From: Mayamaea pseudoterrestris
Taxonomy: Eukaryota
Direction of reading: 5' to 3'
DNA length: 64,000 bases
Assembly: GCA_027923505.1 (NCBI GenBank)
Contig: BROI01000019.1
Location: 1 to 64,000 of the forward strand
Shown here piece by piece: positions 1 to 58,885 of this stretch (positions within the stretch are counted from its first letter, which is position 1; each line of letters begins with the position of its first letter). Under the pieces are notes generated by a model, which did not search any database, was not told the DNA's origin, and was given only the letters and a program-made list of their open reading frames with translations. Position numbers and translations under genes: made by a program.

Positions 1-3000
1 TACTTTGGTTGAGTCTTCTTGGCGCATCCTACTTTGCCGGCCGCTATCGCAGTCCTTTGCCCACGTCGCCGCCCTCTCAAGAGCCACCTCCCAAGTTGAG
101 CCGCCAGGCAACTCGCCGCCTCCGTCGAGGCCTTCGCCGTTGCCTCCGTCCTGCTTCTACAGCTCCAAGTGCTGCAGATCTTGGCTACCATCGCTCCTTT
201 CCCATTCGTCTCCGTCGCCAAGATGCCCACCTTCACCTACCCTCTGTTCGCCAAGTTTGAGACGCCCAGGTCGCCCGCAACTTTGCTCAACAGGTTGAAG
301 GCTTCTGCAATCGCTTGTCAAGGTCTCCCGACGAGGGAGATAGAGCCCGTGTTGCTCCTCCTGCCAAGGCCAAGATGAAAGGACAGGTCTCCAAGACGTC
401 CCAGTTCAAACCCCAGTGTGGAGCCCGTCGCTCGCCCCAGTTCAAAACCAAGCGTCGAGCCCCTCCTGAACCCGTGTCGCAGTCAACACCCCAGTGACAC
501 CGAGTTCATTCAACTACTCGTCGCCCTCGTCCTTCTTCAAGACCAAGGCCTACTAGGAGCAACGTTCGGGAAACCCTTCCTTCGGATCGCATTCAGGGTA
601 TATCCACTGGCTCCTACACTCACCGTCCTGTTGGTCCCACCGCTCGCCAGCTCGCCTTGCTGCAAACCTACGGGCATGCCTACATCTCGAGTCTTTCCCC
701 TGGAGAGCAAGAAGCCCTTCCTGACTGGGTTCGCGAGGGAGCTCAGGCTTACCATGAGGCCACTAGCAACCTTAACAAAGCTACAGGCAATGTCCGCCGT
801 CGCCGAGGCAAGAAGGAACGCTACAGGAAGGTGATCTGGGACAGTGGCGCCTCCATCTCCTTGTCCTTCTCCAAGGATGACTTTGTCGGTCCCATTCACG
901 AGGCCCCTGAGAGCATTGAGCTTAATGGTCTCTTTGCTGGCTCCTTTATCAGAGGATACGGGCATGTGGCTTGGAGCTTTGAGGACTCAAAAGGACAGCT
1001 TCGAACGCTCAAAGTGCCCACCTATTACGTCCCCAGCGCCCGAGTCCGTTTGCTTAGCACTAACAGCTTGGTGTCGGTCTACAAGGATGAGTATGTTCAC
1101 CAAGACAGTGAGGCTCTCTATTTAAGTGGAACTCAAGGATCAAGACGCCCTGATGGATCGCCTCCGTTGAATAGCATTCGCATCCCCATTGATCCCCAAA
1201 CAAACTTGCCCACTGGGTATGCCTACGAGACCCGCATGGACTCAAATGCCTACAATGCTCAAGGTCCTCCGCCTCCTTTGCCTGGCTCAGGTCCAGGATC
1301 CTCTCCAGGTGGTCCCAATTCTCCTTCGTCAAACGGCAACTCATCTGGTCCTTCGTCGGGTCGCTCTCCAAACAGTCCATCCAATCGCCCCAGTGGTTCG
1401 CCAAGTGCTCCTTCTCCTTCTCCAAGTCCACCAGCCGTCTCTCCAACCAATTTGAATCTATCAGAGGCTGATAAGGAGATCCTCCATTGGCATTACAAGT
1501 TTGGTCACATTGACTACCGCAAGATCCAGTTTCTAATGCGCAGCGGAGCCTTGGCCCCAACCGAGGGAGCTCGCCGCCTTCACAGCTCTTGTGTACGCCT
1601 TTGCTCCTTTCCAATGTGTGCTGCTTGTCAATATGCAAAGCAAAAGGTTCGCACTTCTCCAGGTCTAAAAGAGAGCGTGGTTAAGGACAAGGCGGATGCT
1701 CTGAGGCGCGACAACCTGTTTCCCGGCCAGCGGATCAGTGTGGACCATTTCATCTGTTCAACTAAGGGTTGCCTCTTCTCCTCTCGAGGCAAATCAAAGG
1801 AGACTGATCTGTTTGGAGGCGGATGCATCTTTGTTGACCATTGCACTGGCTACGTGCATGTGGAACTGCAGAGGTACTTAACAACCGAAGAGACACTTAA
1901 GGCAAAAGAGGCATTCGAGTTGTTCTGTCTTGAAAGTGGAGCCGTTCCCCAAGAGTACTTGACTGACAATGGCACTGCTTTTACTTCAAAGGCATTCGCA
2001 AAGCATTTAACCACGTTCCATCAAATCGTCAAGTTTGCCGGCACGGGCTCCCATTGCCAGAACGGGGTGGCGGAGCGAGCCATCCGCACGATCATGTCCA
2101 TCGCCCGAGCAATGCTCCTACATGCCGCTATCCATTGGCCAGAGGTTGCAGATCCTAGTCTTTGGCCTATGGCAGTCCGCCATGCCGTTTACTTGTGGAA
2201 CAAAATGCCGAATCCAAGCACGGGGATCAGTCCACAGGATCTGTTTACAAGGACTCAATGGCCCCACAGTCGCTTCCACGACCTGCACGTTTGGGGATGC
2301 CCCGTATATGTGCTTGATAAGAAGCTTTCAGATGGTCACAAGCTTCCTCGTTGGCAACCTCGAGCTCATCGGTGTATCTTTGTTGGTATGAGCGACTCGC
2401 ATGCCAGCTCCGTCCCTTTGGTACTCAATCCTCAAACGGGAAGTATAACGCCGCAGTACCATGTTGTTTTTGATGATTACTTTGCCACCGTTTCTTCTGA
2501 TCCCTCGTCTCTCCCTGATCTTTGGTCCAAGGAATGGTTTCAGCTCTTTGGTGACTCTGCCTACCAGTACATTCCTGTTGGTGACGAGACAGACAGTGAG
2601 GCCGAGGCAGAAGAGGAGGCTGCTTCTGCTCCTATTCCAAGCTCCTTTAGTCGCCAAGAACGCATTCGGGCTGCATTTGATGCCAACCATCCTTCTCAAG
2701 CTCTTCCCGTTGATGTGCCGCCATCTTCTCCAAGACGCCCCACCGATAAACCAAGCGATAATCCAGTTGCCAACGCCAGTCCCAGTGCTCCACCCAACTG
2801 AAGCGCCTGCTCAAGCTCCTTCTCCATCTCCTCTTGAGCACCCAGACGCCTCCAATCCTGCTTTAACTGAGATTCCTTTCCCGTCTCCCAGCGACGATCC
2901 TATTGACGAGCCGTCTCAAACGAGGGAGCTGCCTACGTTTGAACCATCCGACGAGCCATCCTCGAGGGAGCCTACACCCTTGCCTACCCAAACAGAATTT

Positions 3001-3789
3001 CTGAGGGAGACACAAACCACTACTTCTGCTCCATCTTCTTCCCCTTTGCCGTCTGCTCTCCGTCGCTCAGGACGCCTAGCTGGTCTCCAACCCCAGGACG
3101 CCCCAGCGCCTCGCCGTTTGACGCGCCAAGTTGGCTGGTCTTCTGCCCGTTATGGCTATGAAGGAGACCAAGGCTTTGGCTACAGCGCTTTCAATGCCTC
3201 TGCCTCTCCTTTAAAGCCTCCATCCTTTGCCGATGCCGCGCATTTTGCTGGCCTGTTTGCTTCCCTCCGTATCCCGGCGCCTGCTGTTTACAAGGCTGCC
3301 GCAACGGATCCCGACACACTCTCCTACGAGCAAGCAATGGCGGATCAACCTCATGTTAGCAAGTGGTTAGAGGCAGCAGCAGAAGAAATCCGTGTTTTGG
3401 AGTCCAAGGGAACGTGGGAGGAGGTGCCCAAGTCTCAAGCGAAAGGAAGGATCTTGCCAGGAACCTGGGTCTTCCGCCGCAAGCGGACGCCCGATGGCAG
3501 CATTAAAAAGTATAAAGGCTGCTACTGTGTCCGTGGTGATCTCCAAAAAGGCGTGTTTGAAACGTTTGCCCCTGTCATTGCTTGGAGCACCATTCGAGTG
3601 CTGCTCGTCATTGCCTTGACCCTTGATTGGCATACCTGCTCAGTTGATTTTGCCAGCGCCTTTGTCCAAGCAGAGCTCCAAGATCCCGTTTGGATTCATC
3701 TTCCTCAAGGCTTCCGCTCTTCCAAAGGTGCCAACATGTGTTTAAAGTTAATGAAGAGTCTCTACGGTCTTGCCGTCGCCCCGCGCCTC

Positions 3790-3995
3790 TAGCAGGTTGC
3801 ACACGAAAAACAGCAACCAGAGCGATACCTTTACTTGTCATAGTGCATGGTGCCTTGTATGCAGCATATAGTACACTAGCAGACGGAAAAGTAGCAGCGT
3901 GTTTAGAGGTGATATAGCCGGTTATCCTTGGTTCGATTCCGAGGTGCGCTACTTTTAACGGCATAGTGATACTACTTTCTGTTGCATACCTGCTA
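3790..3995 (+). repeat. TRIM 5' LTR
   Basis: TAGCAGGT...ACCTGCTA (8-bp perfect inverted ends); identical by eye to 4260-4465. Confidence 0.95.
3893..3956 (+). ncRNA. tRNA-like Pol III cassette in TRIM 5' LTR
   Basis: T arm CTTGG-TTCGATT-CCGAG (B box GGTTCGATTCC, 3930-3940), 7-nt acceptor strand GTGCGCT plus discriminator A, A-box-like TGTTTAGAGG, TTTT at 3953-3956. D and anticodon arms are degenerate. Confidence 0.7.
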
Positions 3996-4008
3996 TGGTA
4001 GCGTCCCT
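3996..4008 (+). other. Primer-binding site of TRIM
   Basis: TGGTAGCGTCCCT directly after the 5' LTR. TGG complements tRNA CCA, and the sequence resembles initiator-Met-type PBSs (yeast Ty1/Ty3 TGGTAGCGCC). Confidence 0.85.
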
Positions 4009-4259
4009 ATCGAGAGATCTGGACTGAGGCTGCTGGTTCGAGTTGCGATCGAATCAAGCGAAGAAAAAGCAAAAATTCACTGGTTGCACGGGTTTGTCAC
4101 GAACGAACGATGGGGAGTCGCGGACCCTGGGGAGTGCACAAAGATGCGCCGAGCCCGAAACGCCGCAGGAAAAACTGAAAAGTGACATTCCCCCGCGAGA
4201 CGAAAATGCCAGCTGAAACGGAAGACGAGTTAGCACTATGACGCGCAAAGCTAGGGGAG

Positions 4260-4465
4260 TAGCAGGTTGCACACGAAAAACAGCAACCAGAGCGATACCT
4301 TTACTTGTCATAGTGCATGGTGCCTTGTATGCAGCATATAGTACACTAGCAGACGGAAAAGTAGCAGCGTGTTTAGAGGTGATATAGCCGGTTATCCTTG
4401 GTTCGATTCCGAGGTGCGCTACTTTTAACGGCATAGTGATACTACTTTCTGTTGCATACCTGCTA
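4260..4465 (+). repeat. TRIM 3' LTR
   Basis: Identical copy of 3790-3995 at offset 470. Confidence 0.95.
4363..4426 (+). ncRNA. tRNA-like Pol III cassette in TRIM 3' LTR
   Basis: Identical copy of 3893-3956. Confidence 0.7.
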
Positions 4466-5650
4466 CCTCTGGTTCGAGCATTTGCGAGACGCTCTCCTTC
4501 GTATGGGATTGAAGCAGAGCAAGTTCAACCAATGCCTCTTCTATGGTGTTAACATCCTCTTTGGTTGCTTTGTTGATGATGGTTGCATTGTCGCTAAGTC
4601 AGTTGATGTGGTTACCCAGTTCATCTCCAAGTTGCAAGCCATGGGATTCGAGTTGACTCAGGAGGCATCCTTGTGCGAGTACCTCGGTATCAAGCTCGTG
4701 CGGACAACAAAGCAGGCTCCTTTACTTTAACCCAACAAGGATTGATTGACAAGATTGTTGCAGCGACTGGTCTTCAAAGCCGCAAGCCCAACTACTTGCC
4801 CGCCTCGCAAGTTGCCCTTGGATCCGACCCAGATGGCTCCCCAATGGTGGAAAAATGGGGATACGCCTCCATTGTTGGCATGCTCCTTTACTTGTCAACC
4901 AATACTCGCCCTGATATTGCATTTGCTGTCTCACAAGTTGCTCGCTTTAATTCTTCACCAAAGCAGAGCCACGCCATTGCCGTTAAGACTATCGTGCGCT
5001 ACCTTGCTGGCACTCGCAATCAAGGCACCATCTTCAAGCCAACCCGCAAGCTTAACTTGGATCTGTTTGTTGATGCAGACTTTTGTGGGTTGCACAAGCG
5101 AGAACCAGACCATTTGCCTGATAGCGTTCGATCCAGGACTGGGTATGTGATCCTGTTGGCTGATTGCCCATTGGTATGGAAGAGCCAGTTGCAGACCGAG
5201 ATCTCTCTTTCCACCCTTGAAGCTGAGTACTGTGCTCTATCCTATTCGCTCAAGACTCTCCTTCCTTTAAAGCGCATCCTTGGTGAATTCGTTGAGGTAT
5301 TGAGCTTGCCGCCCGAGATCAAGACCTCCATTCGTGCCCGTGTTTTCGAGGACAATCAAGGTTGCTATTACCTCGCTACCAATCAGAAACTAACCAATCG
5401 CACCAAGTACTTTCTGGTTAAGTATCACTGGTTTTGGTCGCACCACAATCGAGGAGAGTTTGAGGTCTTCAAGGTTGATACCAAGAATCAAGATGCCGAC
5501 TACATGACTAAAGGGTTGCCGCGTGAGTCCTTCGAGCGGAACCGCCTTTCAGTCCAAGGTTGGTAGTCCTTGGTTGTCTGCAACCAGCTGTTAGAGAAAC
5601 AAGTCGCCCCTGTTGTCATCTATATGTTATTGATTCCCCGTCCAGTCTCG

Positions 5651-21876: not shown

Positions 21877-23094
21877 TCAATCGTTTGCTCCATGTTTCAG
21901 TTTTCGCCACACTTTGCTCCCTAGCTTGATATTGTCGCCGTCACTTTCTACATGTGGCCCAAACAGAAGTCGCGTCAACTCTACAAACTGACCAGGAGTC
22001 AGTTGCTCTGGCCGCATTGACGCCCAATCATCTGGCAGTAGTTGAGTTTTGGCAAAGGCATCGCCATTTTCCATTGCTGTTTGAACAGACTTGGGCCGCG
22101 GCAATGGCGCGGAATCCAACAGGGCTGAGGCTGCATCAGCATCTCCCTGACAAATCTCCAAGCTCAGTTTCCGTAAACTATTTCGCACAGTCTTGCGTCG
22201 TTGCTGAAAGCTCATGTTGACAACCCTTCGCAAATGCGATGGCGAAACGCCAGCTAGTCGTTGCTTCAACTGCGACGGCGTCAAAAAGTGAAGCCCAACG
22301 AGCGCCGAGTCAACCTTTGGTTTCGGGTAAAAGACGGTAGGTGGAATCTTGAAGTGACACTTGACCTGTGCGTATAGTTGAAAGACGACTGACAATATGC
22401 CATAGTCTTTCGTACAAGTCTTGGCCACCATGCGCTGGGCCACCTCCCACTGCATGGTGACTGTCGCACTGCTGATGGCGCCAAAGTGACTGGCATCCGC
22501 CAAGGAAAACAAAATTTGCGAGGTAATGTAGTAGGGTAGATTGCCAATGACGACCAACGGGTGGTTGACGTTTTGTGCCAATGCAGGGTAGTCCGTCTGC
22601 ATGACGTCCTGATGATCGACTCGAAGACCAGGATGCTTGTTTCGCAGCAAGTCAACGGATCGTTCGTCAATCTCAAGGCAATGCAGCTTGTCGGCGCCAT
22701 AGGTTTCGACAAGCTTATCGGTCAGTGCACCTGCTCCAGGTCCAAGCTCGACGACATGCTCCACACTTGCTTGATGTCGCGTCGCATCCTTGTGAAAGGC
22801 TCGCAAGATTTTCGCAACCGTATTGGCATCCTGCAAGTAGTTTTGACCGAGCGATTGCTTTGGCTTGTAGCTTCCCGCTGGAAGTTTCGGAGTGGCGGAT
22901 GGTGCGGATAGCAAAACGGTGGCAACCGATGCGGCGTAGTTGGGGTCGTCCTCCTGCCACTCCCATTCGTCATTGTCGCGTTGAACCCAGCCGTTTAATC
23001 TTGATAAATGTATTCTAGTATGAGATATGGAGAAGGACTTAGCATAATCTGCTAGCAGTATACATATCGATAGCGTGAAAAGAAGCTTCACCAT
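21877..23094 (-). CDS. ksgA: rRNA adenine dimethyltransferase (KsgA/Dim1 family), probably plastid-targeted
   Basis: KQSLGQNYL, VELGPGAGALT, GNLPYYITS, QWEVAQR, FYPKPKVDS, FQQRRKT; signal peptide ending AKS-F. Confidence 0.93.
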   Translation of the reverse strand: MVKLLFTLSICILLADYAKSFSISHTRIHLSRLNGWVQRDNDEWEWQEDDPNYAASVATVLLSAPSATPKLPAGSYKPKQSLGQNYLQDANTVAKILRAFHKDATRHQASVEHVVELGPGAGALTDKLVETYGADKLHCLEIDERSVDLLRNKHPGLRVDHQDVMQTDYPALAQNVNHPLVVIGNLPYYITSQILFSLADASHFGAISSATVTMQWEVAQRMVAKTCTKDYGILSVVFQLYAQVKCHFKIPPTVFYPKPKVDSALVGLHFLTPSQLKQRLAGVSPSHLRRVVNMSFQQRRKTVRNSLRKLSLEICQGDADAASALLDSAPLPRPKSVQTAMENGDAFAKTQLLPDDWASMRPEQLTPGQFVELTRLLFGPHVESDGDNIKLGSKVWRKLKHGAND

Positions 23095-46167: not shown

Positions 46168-48003
46168 ATGGTTGCCCATCGTGATCCATTTCCAATGCAA
46201 TCGGACGCTGCCAAGGCGCTGAGCGCAACGAGCGGGGACGCTAGCAATATCATTCATCAATGGACTTCCATGGATACGAGCAGCAATGAGCCGAGTAATA
46301 CTATCATTGAAGCTTCCGATGCACAAGATGGTTTGACGGGAACAAAGAAGAAGAAGAGTGCCGACGATGATTCTGACGATGAGAATAACGACGACGAGGA
46401 TGAGTTTCTCGACCGTCCAATTTGGGAGAGTCGATCGCCATCAGAAAGGGCGATTGCCAAGGTGCAGCGAGTCTTGGAGAAGGTGTATCAGCGCTTGTAT
46501 GGCGATAAGCTACCCATTTCGGAAATGATTCGAACGCTTTGTCTTGCATCCACCCTTTACTTCATGATTGGAGGGTACTGGATCATGCGCAGCCTCAAGG
46601 ATCCAATTTTAACGTCCATTTGTGGTGTTGGCGTCATTCCAAAGGCCAAGATGCTTTCCGTTGTGCTAGTACTAGGAGTGGTCTCCATTTATAATCGGCT
46701 GCTTGATACCAAGATTCCAAGGCATCAGCTTTTCTACATTTTTGGCACTTTCTACTTTTTCCTCTTCATGACCATTGCCTTGCTGCTCATGCATCCCACT
46801 ATCGGTTTAGCCAATCAGCGGCAGTCGCCGTGGCGCCTGCTTGGATGGGCCACTTACTGCACAATTGAGAGTTACGGATCCATCATGGTGTCGCTATTTT
46901 GGTCTTTTACGAACAGTAACTTTTCTTTGGAATCAGCCAAGGCGAGCTATGGCGTCTTGATTGCATGCGCTCAAGTTGGAAGCATTCTCGGACCCACCTT
47001 TGTCAACCAATATGCCGAGACGCTTGGTGTAACAACGTGCTACATTATTGGTGCTTTCTGTCTCACCTCGCTTCAGGCGACCATGTACATGTATGTGAGC
47101 ATCTACGGGGCGATGGATCATACGGCAGTTGCAGCGTCACCGACCAAAACACTCTCCAAGGAGCGTACCGGCATATTTGAGGGTGTACGCTTGTTTTGGA
47201 AGTACAACTACGTCAAGGGTATCTTTGCGATTAGCTGCGTGTTCATGATTGTTGGAACAATCATTGACTATATAATGAAGACACTTGCCCGAGACTACTT
47301 TGCCGAGAAACATGTTTGTGAGATTGGCATGTCTTGCTACGACACTACGGGGGGCGAGCATGGTATGTCGGAGGATGCCACGGCGGCGTTCACCAGTTTC
47401 ATGGGCTTGTTTGGTCAGTCTGCAAATACTATTAGCTTTCTCTTCAGCTTGCTTGGGACAAGTGCCGTCATTCGCACGCTTGGCTTGCGATGGACGCTCC
47501 TCTTATTTCCCTCTCTATGCCTAACCGTCATCACCATTGTTCGATTTTATCCGACGCTGAATGTGACCTTTGGCGCCATGATGGCCATCAAGGCAGCGTC
47601 ATACTCGCTCAACAACCCCACCAAGGAAATCTTATACCAGCCCACAAGTAGCAGCGTCAAATACAAGGCAAAGAGCTGGATTGATATATTTGGAGCTCGC
47701 GGTGCGAAAGCAACGGCAAGTCTAGTGACCAATGCGTTTTCCTACTCCACTGCTGTTCTTGTACAAAATGGAAGCCTGGTGGGCATGTGTGTGGCGTCCT
47801 TCTTGATTTGGAATGCAACGTACATGGGAAAGAAGTTTGACGAGTATACTGAATCTGGCTACATTGTTGGTGACGAGAACAGTCCTGACGAGGATGGCGG
47901 AGATGGCAACTATCTGGAAATGTCCACGGATTCGCATGAGGGCGATACGAGCTGTGTGATATACGATGACGACGAATTAGATGATCTCGAGGCAGAAATC
48001 TAA
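46168..48003 (+). CDS. Nucleotide transporter (NTT/TLC ATP:ADP antiporter family), paralog 1
   Basis: About 12 TM segments; [47 protein letters not shown]. Confidence 0.9.
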
Positions 48004-57004: not shown

Positions 57005-58885
57005 ATGCCTCGTCGCGATCCATTTCCCATGCGATCAGACGCCGCCAAGAAACTGGCCGGAGCCGACGACGACGAACATGGCAACGAGTGGAGCACCATG
57101 GCGACAACAACAAACACTGCTTCCAATGCTGCGCCACTAGAAATTGATGACGCTCGCGATGGATTAATGGGAAGCAACAAGAAGAAGAGTCATGATGATA
57201 ACGACGATTTAAATGATGACGACGACGATTCCGTGGAGGACGTGTTTCTGGATCGACCACTCTGGGAGAGTCGTTCGTCTGGACGAACTTTGGCAAAATG
57301 CCAACGCTCCTTTGACCGCGTCTACCATCGCTTGTACGGCGACAAGTTACCCGTTTCGGAAATGCTGCGCACCCTTTGCTTGGCGTCGACGCTCTTCTTC
57401 ATGATTGGCGGCTACTGGTTGATGCGCAGCCTCAAGGACCCGATTCTGACGGCACTCTGCGGCGTGGAAGTGATTCCCAAGGCGAAAATGCTTTCCGTCT
57501 TTGTGGTATTTGGAGTTGTGTCTGTATACAATCGGTTTTTGGATACGGAAATTCCAAGGCATCAATTGTTTTACATTTTTGGAACGTTTTACTTTGTCGT
57601 CTTTTTGACGATTGCAATGTTGCTGCTGCATCCAACGATTGGACTGGAGAATCAAAGACCGTCTCCATGGCGTCTGCTGGGTTGGATCTCCTACTGTACG
57701 ATTGAAAGCTTTGGATCAGTCATGGTTTCATTGTTTTGGTCCTTTACCAACAGCAACTTTTCACTGGAGTCGGCCAAGGCAAGTTACGGAGTGTTGATTG
57801 CCGTGGCGCAGCTTGGCAGCATCTTGGGACCAACCTTTGTGAGTCGGTACGCGGAAACGGTTGGAGTCGCTGCATGTTACGTTGTTGGCGCCTGCTGCCT
57901 CGCGTTGTTGCAAGTGACCATGTACGTTTACATTAGCTTGTATGGAACGGCGGATCGCAATATTCCAGCCAAGCCGCAAAAGAAAACAAAGGCTGGCATG
58001 TTTGAGGGACTCAAGCTCTTTTGGGAGCACAATTATGTAAAGGGAATTTTCGCCATTAGTTGCTTGTTCATGGTGGAAGTTACCATCATTGATTTCACCA
58101 TGAAAATGTTGGCGCGCGACTACTTTGCCGAGGAGCATCCTTGCGAAATGTCCATGTCTTGCTACGATAATTCTGGAGCTGGTAATCATGGCATGTCGGA
58201 GGATGCGACGGCGTCCTTTACAAGCTTTATGGGATTCTTTGGGCAGGTGACAAACTCGCTCAGTTTTCTGTTTAGTCTCTTTGGAACGAGCGCCGTGATC
58301 CGAGCGCTCGGACTGCGGTTGACCTTGCTGCTGTTTCCCTCGCTCTGTTTGGCAGTCATTATTTTCGTTCGCCTATATCCTTCACTCTTTGTTGTTTTTG
58401 GCGCCATGATTACACTCAAGGCTGCCTCATACTCGCTCAATAACCCGACGAAGGAAATCTTGTATCAACCGACGAGTGGCAGTGTCAAATACAAGGCCAA
58501 GAGCTGGATTGACATATTCGGTGCGCGTGGCTCCAAGGCTCTGGGCAGTGTTGTGACGAATGCCTTTTCGGATTCATCCGTTGCTTTGGTGCAGAATGGC
58601 AGTTTAGTTGGCATGTGCGTGGCATCCTTTCTCATTTGGAACGCAACGTTTATGGGTAAACGCTTTGACGAGTACACGGAGTCTGGCTACATTGTTGGTG
58701 ATGACCCTACCGAGGAGGAAACGGAGGCGGTGAATGTCGCCATGGCGAGTGACCAGAATGCGGAGGCGGATACAAGTTGTGCGATTTACGAGGAGGACGA
58801 TGAGCTTGGGGCGGAGGATGATGGTCAAAGCGACGGCGAGACCGACTTTGCCAAGGCTAAATCAGCAGACACTACCATGGTATAG
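57005..58885 (+). CDS. Nucleotide transporter (NTT/TLC family), paralog 2
   Basis: Same motifs as 46168-48003, plus an intact VEVT. Confidence 0.9.

What the first reader, a model, noticed from the sequence alone, without database searches (positions are those of the whole stretch)
3790..4465. Recently inserted TRIM with tRNA-derived Pol III cassettes in its LTRs, in a diatom-type genome
Seen: 676-bp element, identical 206-bp LTRs, PBS, PPT, 4-bp TSD and no credible coding sequence. Each LTR holds AAAAGTAGC...GCTACTTTT closing a tRNA-like unit with a perfect B box/T arm, an A-box-like sequence, TATA about 25 nt upstream (3867-3870) and a T4 run. Known: Cassandra TRIMs carry 5S-derived LTR sequence, and Helenus TRIMs (fungi, animals, plants) carry tRNA-like LTR sequence. 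Inference: this is a stramenopile member or independent origin of small-RNA-gene-derived TRIMs; I know of no such report in diatoms. Identical LTRs imply recent activity.
Basis: partly seen in the sequence, partly recalled or inferred. Interest (0 to 1): 0.9.

Follow-up and report, generated by a model that had tools for sequence, protein, structure and literature searches.

The report
Diatom mini-retrotransposon with tRNA-like LTRs
A 676-base non-coding jumping element that carries a decayed tRNA-like gene in each of its two end repeats has recently landed inside another retrotransposon in a diatom genome, which extends a class of elements described in 2024 to a new branch of life.

Summary
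Window 3790-4465 is a 676-bp non-coding LTR element with two identical 206-bp LTRs. It has 8-bp terminal inverted repeats, a PBS starting TGG right after the 5' LTR, a short purine tract before the 3' LTR and a 4-bp duplication (CCTC). It splits the reverse-transcriptase ORF of a degenerate Copia-type element exactly: Pfam RVT_2 positions 11-128 end at 3789 and 130-213 resume at 4470.

Each LTR holds a sense-strand tRNA-like unit (3870-3952, 4340-4422). It has a perfect T arm/B box and an A-box-like motif, and a T4 run follows it. It fails ARAGORN's default threshold and Rfam's tRNA model. At 95% of ARAGORN's threshold these two units are the only hits in the 64 kb, and 1 of 3000 shuffled LTRs scores as well.

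Contigs from public runs of two studies hold the element unchanged. They break exactly at its LTR ends, show a second 5' flank and diverged LTR copies, and include ~6-kb contigs that share only the LTR end and PBS; similarity appears to continue a short way into the leader. These contigs are a candidate autonomous partner.

The host is a diatom. Best reading: a recently active Helenus-type (TRIMp3-like) TRIM, so a new member of a known kind. Pol III use is inferred, not shown. I found no stramenopile report of such an element.

The parts
3786..3789 (+). Left copy of the 4-bp target-site duplication (CCTC)
   Evidence: Read. It is identical to 4466-4469. Removing 3790-4469 restores the Copia RT frame.
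3790..3995 (+). 5' LTR, 206 bp, termini TAGCAGGT...ACCTGCTA (non-canonical TA...TA)
   Evidence: 100% identical to 4260-4465. Contigs of run X3 begin exactly at 3790.
3867..3870 (+).
   Evidence: Read. Function not tested.
3870..3952 (+). tRNA-like unit of the 5' LTR. It is an 83-nt cloverleaf with a long variable arm, an 8-nt anticodon loop (ARAGORN: 'Stop|Leu', ttag), 6 of 7 acceptor pairs and a 5 of 5 T stem.
   Evidence: ARAGORN finds it at -ps95/-ps90 but not at default. 1 of 3000 shuffles reaches -ps95. No Rfam tRNA match.
3877..3886 (+). A-box-like motif TAGCAGACGG. A second, weaker copy, TAGCAGCGTG, lies at 3892-3901.
   Evidence: Read. Compared with 'TRGCY ... YGG' given for Helenus in PMC10886601 sect. 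3.5: TRGC and YGG are met, the Y is not.
3930..3940 (+). B box GGTTCGATTCC inside the T arm 3927-3943
   Evidence: The consensus occurs in the window only here and at 4400-4410, both strands searched.
3953..3956 (+). T4 run directly after the tRNA-like unit (possible Pol III terminator)
   Evidence: It and its 3'-LTR twin (4423) are the only T4+ runs on the + strand of the element. It is lost in the diverged copy of run X1 (3953 T>A, 3955 T>A).
3996..4007 (+). Primer-binding site TGGTAGCGTCCC
   Evidence: Abuts the 5' LTR. It is the only exact match in the window. ~6-kb contigs in public runs share it with the LTR end. The cognate tRNA was not identified.
4008..4252 (+). Non-coding internal region, purine-rich and T-poor. 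The A-tract at 4071-4075 is expanded in run X5.
   Evidence: Composition and A-runs, no Pfam match, A-tract loose ends.
4253..4259 (+). Short polypurine tract AGGGGAG
   Evidence: Abuts the 3' LTR.
4260..4465 (+). 3' LTR, identical to the 5' LTR. It carries the second tRNA-like unit (4340-4422), B box 4400-4410 and T4 4423-4426.
   Evidence: Contigs of X1 and X4 end exactly at 4465.
4466..4469 (+). Right copy of the target-site duplication (CCTC)
498..5566 (+). Host of the insertion: a degenerate Copia-type (Ty1/copia order) retrotransposon, interrupted at 3789/4470
   Evidence: Pfam gag_pre-integrs, SH3_retrovirus and RVT_2. At least two frame changes. No LTR pair in the window.

Best explanation
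This is a young copy of a Helenus-type TRIM: a short, non-coding LTR retrotransposon whose LTRs each carry a decayed tRNA-gene-derived module in the sense orientation.

Shown:
- It inserted into the RT gene of an older Copia-type element and duplicated 4 bp.
- Its two LTRs are still identical.
- The same unit, unchanged, occurs in public runs of two studies, and there is sign of other insertion contexts and of diverged LTR copies.

Inferred:
- It encodes nothing. A ~6-kb autonomous LTR retrotransposon supplies its reverse transcriptase and integrase in trans. That partner shares the last ~25 nt of the LTR and the PBS; its sequence just past the PBS also looks similar (compared by eye), while the rest of its LTR, upstream of 3971, differs. 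The 4-bp duplication hints at a Gypsy-type partner.
- The tRNA-like module keeps the two Pol III promoter boxes (A box 3877-3886, B box 3930-3940) while the rest of the cloverleaf has decayed.
- My preferred mechanism (about 40%) is that the module drives sense transcription from about 3866-3870. Read-through of the weak T4 in the 5' LTR and termination at the T4 of the 3' LTR would give a ~557-nt genomic RNA. Its terminal repeat (R) would be the tRNA-like unit itself, with U3 about 3790-3869 and U5 about 3957-3995.
- The alternatives are Pol II transcription from the TATA at 3867 (about 35%) or no promoter of its own (about 25%).
For: Anatomy: identical 206-bp LTRs, and 8-bp TIRs, PBS, PPT and CCTC TSD.

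Exact insertion: RVT_2 profile 11-128 lies before the element and 130-213 after it. The frames end at 3789 and resume at 4470.

Non-coding.

tRNA-likeness:
- ARAGORN -ps95 finds only the two LTR units in 64 kb, and 1 of 3000 shuffled LTRs.
- The B-box consensus occurs only in the LTRs.
- ARAGORN's fold has a long variable arm and a TAG-containing anticodon loop, both of which fit a Leu-type (class II) tRNA.

Family evidence:
- 500-bp contigs (a 470-nt LTR+internal cycle plus 30 nt) with 0 other letters in X1, X3 and X4, and a 453-bp contig in X5.
- Contigs begin or end exactly at 3790 and 4465.
- Depths of 38.8 against 2.6 for the flanking Copia piece in X1, and 871 against 4.9-6.9 in X5. The tool warns that depth is not a copy number.
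- A 68-bp X3 contig joins other sequence to 3790.
- Diverged LTR pieces in X1 (14 differences in 127 nt).

Partner: contigs of 6207, 5454 and 6268 bp in X1, X3 and X4, with the same loose ends in X5. They match only 3971-4006, with 4 differences.

Other points: all 8 listed runs, from 2 studies, hold 90-100% of the sampled words. The length of 676 bp lies within the 311-1263 bp given for Helenus, and a lack of shared LTR sequence with the partner is what PMC10886601 expects for TRIMp3. A4+ runs are enriched on the + strand (8 against 2.4 expected, 0 of 2000 shuffles), while T4+ runs occur only after each unit.
Against: - ARAGORN at default finds no tRNA.
- Rfam's tRNA model gives nothing at E<=10 on 1301 nt or on 101 nt. 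Only the T arm is picked up, as a 5.3-bit tmRNA fragment.
- RNAfold of ARAGORN's 83 nt is no better than shuffles (z +0.89).
- The T4 run right after the unit in the 5' LTR would end a Pol III transcript before the PBS unless it is read through.
- T4+ runs are not depleted against shuffles (P=0.77).
- The single diverged LTR copy has changes in the B box (3935 G>A, 3940 C>T; both keep the T-arm rules) and lacks the T4. That copy is one contig at depth 2.5 and may contain errors.
- No contig bridges the window's own junctions, so occupancy at this locus has no independent confirmation.
- The alternative 5' flank has only 30 letters on the element side, one short of the tool's 31-letter rule.
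- No donor tRNA, no whole genome and no family alignment could be obtained.
Confidence: 0.65

Rival explanations
1. It is an ordinary Pol II-driven TRIM (TRIMp2). The tRNA-like stretch is an inert relic, for example an old SINE or tRNA-gene fragment caught in the LTR, and plays no part in transcription. Genomic RNA starts about 25-30 nt after the TATA at 3867-3870.
For: - The unit fails the default ARAGORN threshold and Rfam's tRNA model.
- The anticodon stem and loop and one acceptor pair have decayed.
- A TATA motif lies in the LTR.
- The T4 directly after the unit would hinder Pol III read-through.
- The T4 is lost in the diverged copy.
Against: The B box is perfect and the A box nearly so, while the rest has decayed. 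That is the pattern of a retained promoter and is what PMC10886601 reports for Helenus. The unit is in the sense orientation and lies where an R region would be. No poly(A) signal was looked for or found.
Confidence: 0.3
2. The tRNA-like unit descends from, or acts as, the primer tRNA. Its 3' end matches what the element's own PBS calls for. So the unit was either captured from the packaged primer tRNA, or its processed, CCA-tailed RNA can prime reverse transcription of the element.
For: Counting back from the discriminator A3951, 9 of 10 positions pair with PBS 3999-4008 (8 Watson-Crick, 1 G.U). Only 46 of about 128,000 window positions (3.6e-4) do as well. TGG 3996-3998 would pair with an added CCA.
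Against: The test was chosen after seeing the data. One mismatch lies in the middle. The unit is followed by C+T4, not CCA, so it looks like a gene copy rather than a mature tRNA copy. PMC10886601 looked for such complementarity in Helenus and found none. The real primer tRNA of this species is unknown.
Confidence: 0.1
3. The tRNA likeness is a chance resemblance, or the element is an assembly artefact or a tandem duplication of a 470-bp unit rather than a transposon.
For: Only one copy lies in the window. In contig graphs the element appears as a 470-nt cycle, which tandem arrays would also give. Rfam gives no tRNA match.
Against: A perfect TSD, 8-bp TIRs, PBS and PPT at the right borders, and an exact split of the RVT_2 domain are not what an artefact or a tandem duplication gives. 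Shuffle and window controls give about 3e-4 for the cloverleaf. The element occurs in runs of two studies.
Confidence: 0.04

Closest known systems
Helenus (tRNA-derived TRIMp3; Kojima 2024, PMC10886601; I read the abstract, sections 2.1, 3 and 4, and the tables and legends)
   Same: - A TRIM under 1000 bp with two LTRs, PBS, PPT and TSD.
- A sense tRNA-like sequence inside each LTR, with A-box (TRGC...YGG) and B-box (GGTTC) motifs kept while the tRNA itself looks non-functional.
- A 4-bp TSD, as in animal Helenus.
- The LTR body is not shared with the presumed autonomous partner, but the PBS region is.
   Different: - The host is a diatom. The paper lists only fungi, animals and Selaginella.
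- The unit is more decayed than many Helenus units: it has no Rfam tRNA match, and tRNAscan-SE was not available here.
- The unit is class-II-like, with a long variable arm.
- Its 3' end is complementary to its own PBS, which the paper says it did not find in Helenus.
- The LTR termini are TA...TA, not TG...CA.
Cassandra and Ajax (5S-rRNA-derived TRIMp3), as described in PMC10886601
   Same: A small-RNA-gene-derived Pol III promoter module duplicated in both LTRs of a TRIM. The length falls in the same range.
   Different: No 5S rRNA match in the Rfam scan of 3500-4800. The module here is tRNA-like (type 2 promoter boxes A and B), not 5S (boxes A, IE and C).
Canonical TRIMs, including the 'putative TRIM/LARD' annotated in Phaeodactylum tricornutum (PMC5859163, passages read)
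   Same: A short non-coding LTR element that depends on an autonomous LTR retrotransposon. A diatom host.
   Different: Those diatom entries are an automated class count (27 elements), with no tRNA-like LTR content described in the passages I read. The supplements were not read.
tRNA-derived SINEs (SINE2)
   Same: A decayed tRNA head that keeps the A and B boxes. Short and non-coding. A-rich sense strand.
   Different: SINEs have no LTRs, PBS or PPT, and LINEs mobilise them. Here the structure and the TSD are those of an LTR element. A SINE inserted into an ancestral LTR is one possible origin (proposed for Helenus in PMC10886601).
Retrozymes (hammerhead-ribozyme-bearing non-autonomous LTR elements)
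   Same: Non-autonomous LTR elements with a structured small-RNA motif in each LTR, and LTRs unrelated to those of their partners.
   Different: No hammerhead match in Rfam.

Membership tests
TRIM (terminal-repeat retrotransposon in miniature) | Total length under 1000 bp with terminal direct repeats | tested here: met
   676 bp; 206-bp repeats, 100% identical.
TRIM | PBS next to the 5' LTR and PPT next to the 3' LTR | tested here: met
   TGGTAGCGTCCC at 3996 and AGGGGAG at 4253-4259. The PPT is short. The cognate tRNA was not identified.
TRIM | No coding capacity for gag or pol | tested here: met
   264-bp internal region; 0 Pfam matches in 3 of 3 frames tested; ORF list.
TRIM | Target-site duplication showing integrase-mediated insertion | tested here: met
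   CCTC on both sides. The RVT_2 profile is continuous across the excised site.
TRIM | Multi-copy family with copies at other sites | tested here: inconclusive
   Contig breakpoints lie at the LTR ends, there is one alternative 5' flank (30 letters on the element side), diverged LTR pieces, and higher depth than the flanks. No genome was available for counting copies.
Helenus / TRIMp3 (PMC10886601) | tRNA-derived sequence inside the LTR | tested here: inconclusive
   For: the only ARAGORN -ps95 hits in the window are the LTR units; 1 of 3000 shuffles does as well; the T arm is perfect. Against: no hit at ARAGORN default and no Rfam tRNA match. The paper's own tests (Censor against Repbase tRNA/SINE2, tRNAscan-SE) could not be run.
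Helenus / TRIMp3 | Box A (TRGCY...YGG) and box B (GGTTC) conserved | tested here: met
   TAGCA...CGG at 3877-3886 (the Y position is not met) and GGTTC at 3930-3934, compared with the motifs. Conservation across copies rests on one diverged contig only.
Helenus / TRIMp3 | Transcription by RNA polymerase III from the LTR | not testable with these tools
   No RNA holder was listed. PMC10886601 states that this is unvalidated for Helenus itself.
Cassandra / Ajax | 5S rRNA-derived sequence in the LTR | tested here: not met
   No 5S match among the 5 Rfam matches at E<=10 on 3500-4800.
Retrozyme | Hammerhead ribozyme in the LTRs | tested here: not met
   No hammerhead match.
Functional tRNA gene | Canonical cloverleaf with a 7-nt anticodon loop that passes the standard detectors | tested here: not met
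   8-nt anticodon loop, mismatches in the acceptor, D and anticodon stems. ARAGORN default gives 0 and Rfam gives none.

The most novel reading that the evidence does not exclude
The LTR-borne tRNA-like unit is not only a promoter relic. It is related to the primer tRNA or stands in for it. Its 3' end, once CCA-tailed, pairs with the element's own PBS: 8 Watson-Crick pairs and 1 G.U over the 10 genomic positions, plus CCA with TGG. The family may therefore carry the gene for its own reverse-transcription primer, or it arose by capturing the packaged primer tRNA. That origin would differ from the SINE-insertion route proposed for Helenus.
Probability: 0.08. Interest if true: 0.8.

Novelty: new member of a known kind. 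Interest (0 to 1): 0.5.

Why it matters
If confirmed, this puts TRIMs built around a small-RNA-gene promoter (TRIMp3/Helenus) into stramenopiles. That would be a fourth major eukaryotic lineage after fungi, animals and a lycophyte, and it would strengthen the view that LTR-element parasites capture Pol III promoters repeatedly and independently.

There are practical consequences too:
- Such elements inflate tRNA-pseudogene calls.
- They are easily missed by TE annotation in diatoms.
- A young, homogeneous 676-bp family gives insertion-polymorphism markers for strains.
- It points to a currently active autonomous LTR retrotransposon in this diatom.

The match between the unit's 3' end and the PBS offers a testable idea about how such modules are acquired.

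Tried and rejected
- Whole-genome search: no genome is held for this window. A try through locus L001 to reach control genomes failed.
- Earlier findings of this scan: nothing by sequence, by place or by words.
- RNA evidence: no RNA holder was listed. This says nothing about expression.
- Metagenome scans. The T-arm/acceptor pattern gave 0 matches. The pattern of PBS plus leader motif gave 1 match, L001. I read it and rejected it as a chance match, because nothing LTR-like lies upstream of the motif and about one random hit was expected.
- Viral contigs: 0 matches for two patterns.
- Prokaryote genomes: 0 exact matches to the 22-nt T-arm-plus-acceptor string, so no donor tRNA was identified.
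- Rfam: only weak matches, all far below their gathering scores (snoRNA ncR3 16.4 bits, mir-728, a tmRNA fragment). I treated these as noise.
- A 5-bp TSD (CCTCT) with the LTR starting at 3791. I rejected this because the T at 3790 is also present at the PPT/LTR junction (4260) and at the alternative flank in X3, and because it completes the 8-bp inverted repeat.
- The host Copia as the mobilising partner. No similarity between the element and the rest of the window beyond 13-21-nt matches.
- T-run depletion as a Pol III signature: not significant (P=0.77).
- A custom covariance model from bacterial class-II tRNAs. I considered it and did not build it, because it would be weaker than Rfam's own model.
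- First taxon search: it used a TPR-repeat protein and was uninformative.
Full report
THE OBSERVATION

Window 3790-4465 is bounded by two 206-nt direct repeats, 3790-3995 and 4260-4465. They are 100% identical and occur nowhere else in the 64 kb. Reading the sequence shows the following:
- Each repeat begins TAGCAGGT and ends ACCTGCTA, a perfect 8-bp inverted repeat.
- TGGTAGCGTCCC starts at 3996, the base after the 5' repeat.
- A short purine run, AGGGGAG, ends at 4259, the base before the 3' repeat.
- CCTC flanks the element on both sides (3786-3789, 4466-4469).

The 264-bp interior cannot encode a protein of any size. The frames that cross the element have no Pfam match (0 of 3; ORF list).

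IT IS A REAL INSERTION

The flanks belong to a Copia-type retrotransposon with the Ty1/copia domain order: gag_pre-integrs and SH3_retrovirus lie in ORF 498-2801, followed by RVT_2. The upstream ORF ends at 3789 on RVT_2 profile position 128. The downstream piece starts at 4470 on profile position 130. Removing the element and one CCTC copy leaves the frame intact. An assembly error or a tandem duplication would not give a TSD, correctly placed PBS and PPT, and an exact split of a protein domain. The host Copia is itself decayed, with at least two frame changes, and no LTR pair for it lies in the window.

THE tRNA-LIKE UNIT

The standard detectors fail:
- ARAGORN at default finds no tRNA in the window.
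- Rfam's tRNA model reports nothing at E<=10, either on 1301 nt or on the 101 nt around the unit. Only the T arm surfaces, as a 5.3-bit tmRNA fragment.

So this is not a functional tRNA gene. It is still far from random:
- At 95% of ARAGORN's threshold, the only hits on both strands of the 64 kb are 3870-3952 and 4340-4422. At 90% one further, unrelated hit appears.
- Of 3000 dinucleotide-preserving shuffles of the LTR, 1 gives a hit at 95% and 7 give a hit at 90%.
- The textbook B-box consensus (recalled) occurs only in the two LTRs.

ARAGORN's fold has these features:
- 6 of 7 acceptor pairs;
- a weak D stem;
- a decayed anticodon stem with an 8-nt loop that contains TAG (printed as 'Stop|Leu');
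- a 4-bp variable-arm stem, as in class II tRNAs;
- a perfect 5-bp T stem with a 7-nt loop;
- a discriminator A followed by C and T4.

The A-box-like TAGCAGACGG (3877-3886) fits the 'TRGC...YGG' that Kojima gives for Helenus, and GGTTC is present. It folds modestly better than shuffles (z -1.93), whereas ARAGORN's 83 nt do not (z +0.89). The 5' border of the unit is therefore uncertain. The T arm, the B box and the sense orientation are not.

RELATIVES

No genome is held for this window, and the scan's earlier notes held nothing. Eight public runs from two studies, under five coded organism labels, hold 90-100% of the element's sampled words. None is on record as RNA. I laid the contigs of four of these runs on 3300-4960.

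In X1, X3 and X4 the element appears as a 500-bp contig with no differences. That is the 470-nt LTR+internal cycle plus 30 nt. In X1 the 11 letters that run on after 4465 are the PBS again. In X5 it is a 453-bp contig with no differences. There the cycle is broken at 4054-4070, just before the A-tract at 4071-4075, which is expanded in that run (loose ends of 15-23 A).

These contigs begin at 3790 (X3) or end at 4465 (X1, X4). Those are the branch points expected if the LTR ends sit in several different contexts.

Depths:

| Run | Element | Copia flank pieces |
|---|---|---|
| X1 | 38.8 | 2.6 (0 differences) |
| X5 | 871 | 4.9 and 6.9 (9 differences in 245 nt; 9 differences plus 1 gap in 388 nt) |

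The tool warns that depth is not a copy number, and the kind of library in X5 is unknown. I take this only as a sign that the unit is much more abundant than its present neighbourhood.

Other pieces from the same call:
- A 68-bp X3 contig joins 38 unrelated letters to 3790-3819. This is a second 5' flank, although it has 30 letters on the element side, one short of the tool's bridging rule.
- Two X1 contigs are diverged LTR pieces. One covers 3870-3996 with 14 differences. They include 3935 G>A and 3940 C>T in the B box (a purine is kept in the loop, and a G-C pair becomes G-T), 3909 G>A (a G.T pair becomes A-T), 3944 G>A (breaks an acceptor pair unless compensated), and 3953 and 3955 T>A (the T4 is lost).

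That diverged piece is one low-depth contig, so conservation of the boxes across the family remains essentially untested. No contig bridges the window's own junctions.

A CANDIDATE PARTNER

In all four runs, long contigs match only 3971-4006, which is the last 25 nt of the LTR plus the PBS, with 4 differences. They are 6207, 5454 and 6268 bp in X1, X3 and X4, and X5 shows the same loose ends. Upstream of 3971 they run on into different sequence. Downstream of 4006 the first letters resemble the TRIM's leader around 4014-4023; I compared these by eye. The size fits one LTR plus the interior of an autonomous LTR retrotransposon. Their depths (29.6, 16.6, 15.7) are like the TRIM's.

Sharing the LTR end, the PBS and perhaps a little leader, but not the body of the LTR, is what Kojima expects for a Pol III-driven TRIM and its Pol II-driven partner. 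I could not read these contigs, so 'autonomous' and 'Gypsy-type' are inferences. The second rests on the 4-bp TSD, by analogy with animal Helenus. Pattern scans of metagenome, viral and prokaryote collections found no relative.

HOST

A Dim1-type methyltransferase encoded at 21880-23094 (minus strand) has its best named relatives in diatoms, at 57-65% identity. These include Seminavis, Nitzschia, Cylindrotheca, Pseudo-nitzschia, Thalassiosira, Fistulifera and Attheya. Of the 12 hits with an organism label among the best 120, 11 are diatoms; the other is an MMETSP record labelled 'Tiarin...'. The window is gene-dense, has 49% G+C, and carries two TLC nucleotide-transporter genes. 'Diatom-type genome' is supported.

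HOW IT MOST LIKELY WORKS

Shown: an LTR-type insertion with a 4-bp duplication, no coding capacity, and a sense tRNA-like module in each LTR.

Inferred:
- Reverse transcriptase and integrase come from the ~6-kb partner.
- Reverse transcription is primed at 3996 by a tRNA whose 3' end reads as the complement of TGGTAGCGTCCC. That tRNA was not identified.
- The pattern 'boxes intact, rest decayed' points to selection for promoter function. I therefore prefer (about 40%) Pol III initiation near 3866-3870, leaky passage of the T4 at 3953, and termination at the T4 of the 3' LTR (4423). That would give a 557-nt RNA whose terminal repeat is the tRNA-like unit.
- In favour, weakly: these two T4 runs are the only T4+ runs on the sense strand, and A-runs are strongly enriched there (8 against 2.4 expected, 0 of 2000 shuffles), so the antisense strand is full of terminators.
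- Against: T-runs are not significantly depleted (P=0.77), the T4 in the 5' LTR is badly placed for a genomic RNA, and no RNA data exist.
- Pol II initiation from the TATA (about 35%) or dependence on read-through transcription (about 25%) remain open.

AN UNEXPECTED DETAIL

Counting back from the discriminator base, the 3' end of the LTR unit pairs with the element's own PBS at 9 of 10 positions. The TGG of the PBS would pair with an added CCA. Only 3.6e-4 of window positions do as well. Kojima reports looking for such complementarity in Helenus and finding none. There are three possible explanations:
- The unit derives from the same tRNA species that primes the family.
- Its RNA can itself prime reverse transcription.
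- It is a coincidence noticed after the fact.

The C+T4 that follows the unit, rather than CCA, argues for a gene-derived copy. The species' tRNA set would decide.

COMPARISON WITH WHAT IS KNOWN, AND NOVELTY

The element meets the structural definition of a TRIM. It also meets that of Helenus/TRIMp3 (PMC10886601), with one reservation: its tRNA derivation rests on sub-threshold ARAGORN hits with controls, not on the paper's own tools. It is not Cassandra/Ajax (no 5S match) and not a retrozyme (no hammerhead match).

The Helenus paper's text and Table 1 list fungi, six animal phyla and Selaginella. The words diatom, stramenopile, heterokont, oomycete and protist do not occur in its main text. 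I did not read its Supplementary Table S1.

Full-text searches for Helenus, TRIMp3, and TRIM terms with diatom or stramenopile found no report of a small-RNA-derived TRIM in stramenopiles. They did find that 'putative TRIM/LARD' elements (27) and putative SINEs were annotated in Phaeodactylum tricornutum (PMC5859163, passages read). Two other diatom TE papers contain none of these terms (word search only). Diatom LTR elements without TG...CA termini are known (3 of 26 families; PMC2806351, passages read).

VERDICT

This is a real, young, probably still mobile Helenus-type TRIM in a diatom. It is a new member of a known kind in a new major lineage. Its Pol III function and its relation to the primer tRNA remain to be tested. 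Interest 0.5.

Noticed in passing
window 498-5566 (+): The element sits in a degenerate Copia-type retrotransposon (protease, integrase, RVT_2, RNase H order). It has at least two frame changes (ORF overlaps at 2449-2801 and 4607-4730) and no LTR pair in the window. Its 5' end probably lies left of the window.
   Followed up: partly
window 46168-48003 and 57005-58885 (+): Two paralogous TLC ATP/ADP-transporter genes about 10.8 kb apart, 71-75% identical at the DNA level. This looks like a local duplication of a nucleotide-transporter gene.
   Followed up: no
window 4071-4075, in run X5: The internal A-tract of the element is expanded in the coded organism E (loose ends of 15-23 A, several variants), while the rest of the element is unchanged.
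   Followed up: no
window 3939-3951 versus 3996-4008: The 3' end of the LTR's tRNA-like unit is complementary to the element's own PBS at 9 of 10 positions. The background frequency is 3.6e-4.
   Followed up: partly
window 3790, 3877, 3892: The hexamer TAGCAG occurs three times in the LTR: at its 5' terminus and at the start of two A-box-like motifs 15 nt apart. This may be a small internal duplication.
   Followed up: no
window 397-465: Two 33-nt direct repeats 36 nt apart (82% identical) lie inside proline-rich open frames at the window's left end.
   Followed up: no
L001 252-278 (-): The only metagenome match to the pattern of PBS plus leader motif lies in a 1115-bp contig with no LTR-like sequence next to it. 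I judged it a chance match.
   Followed up: yes
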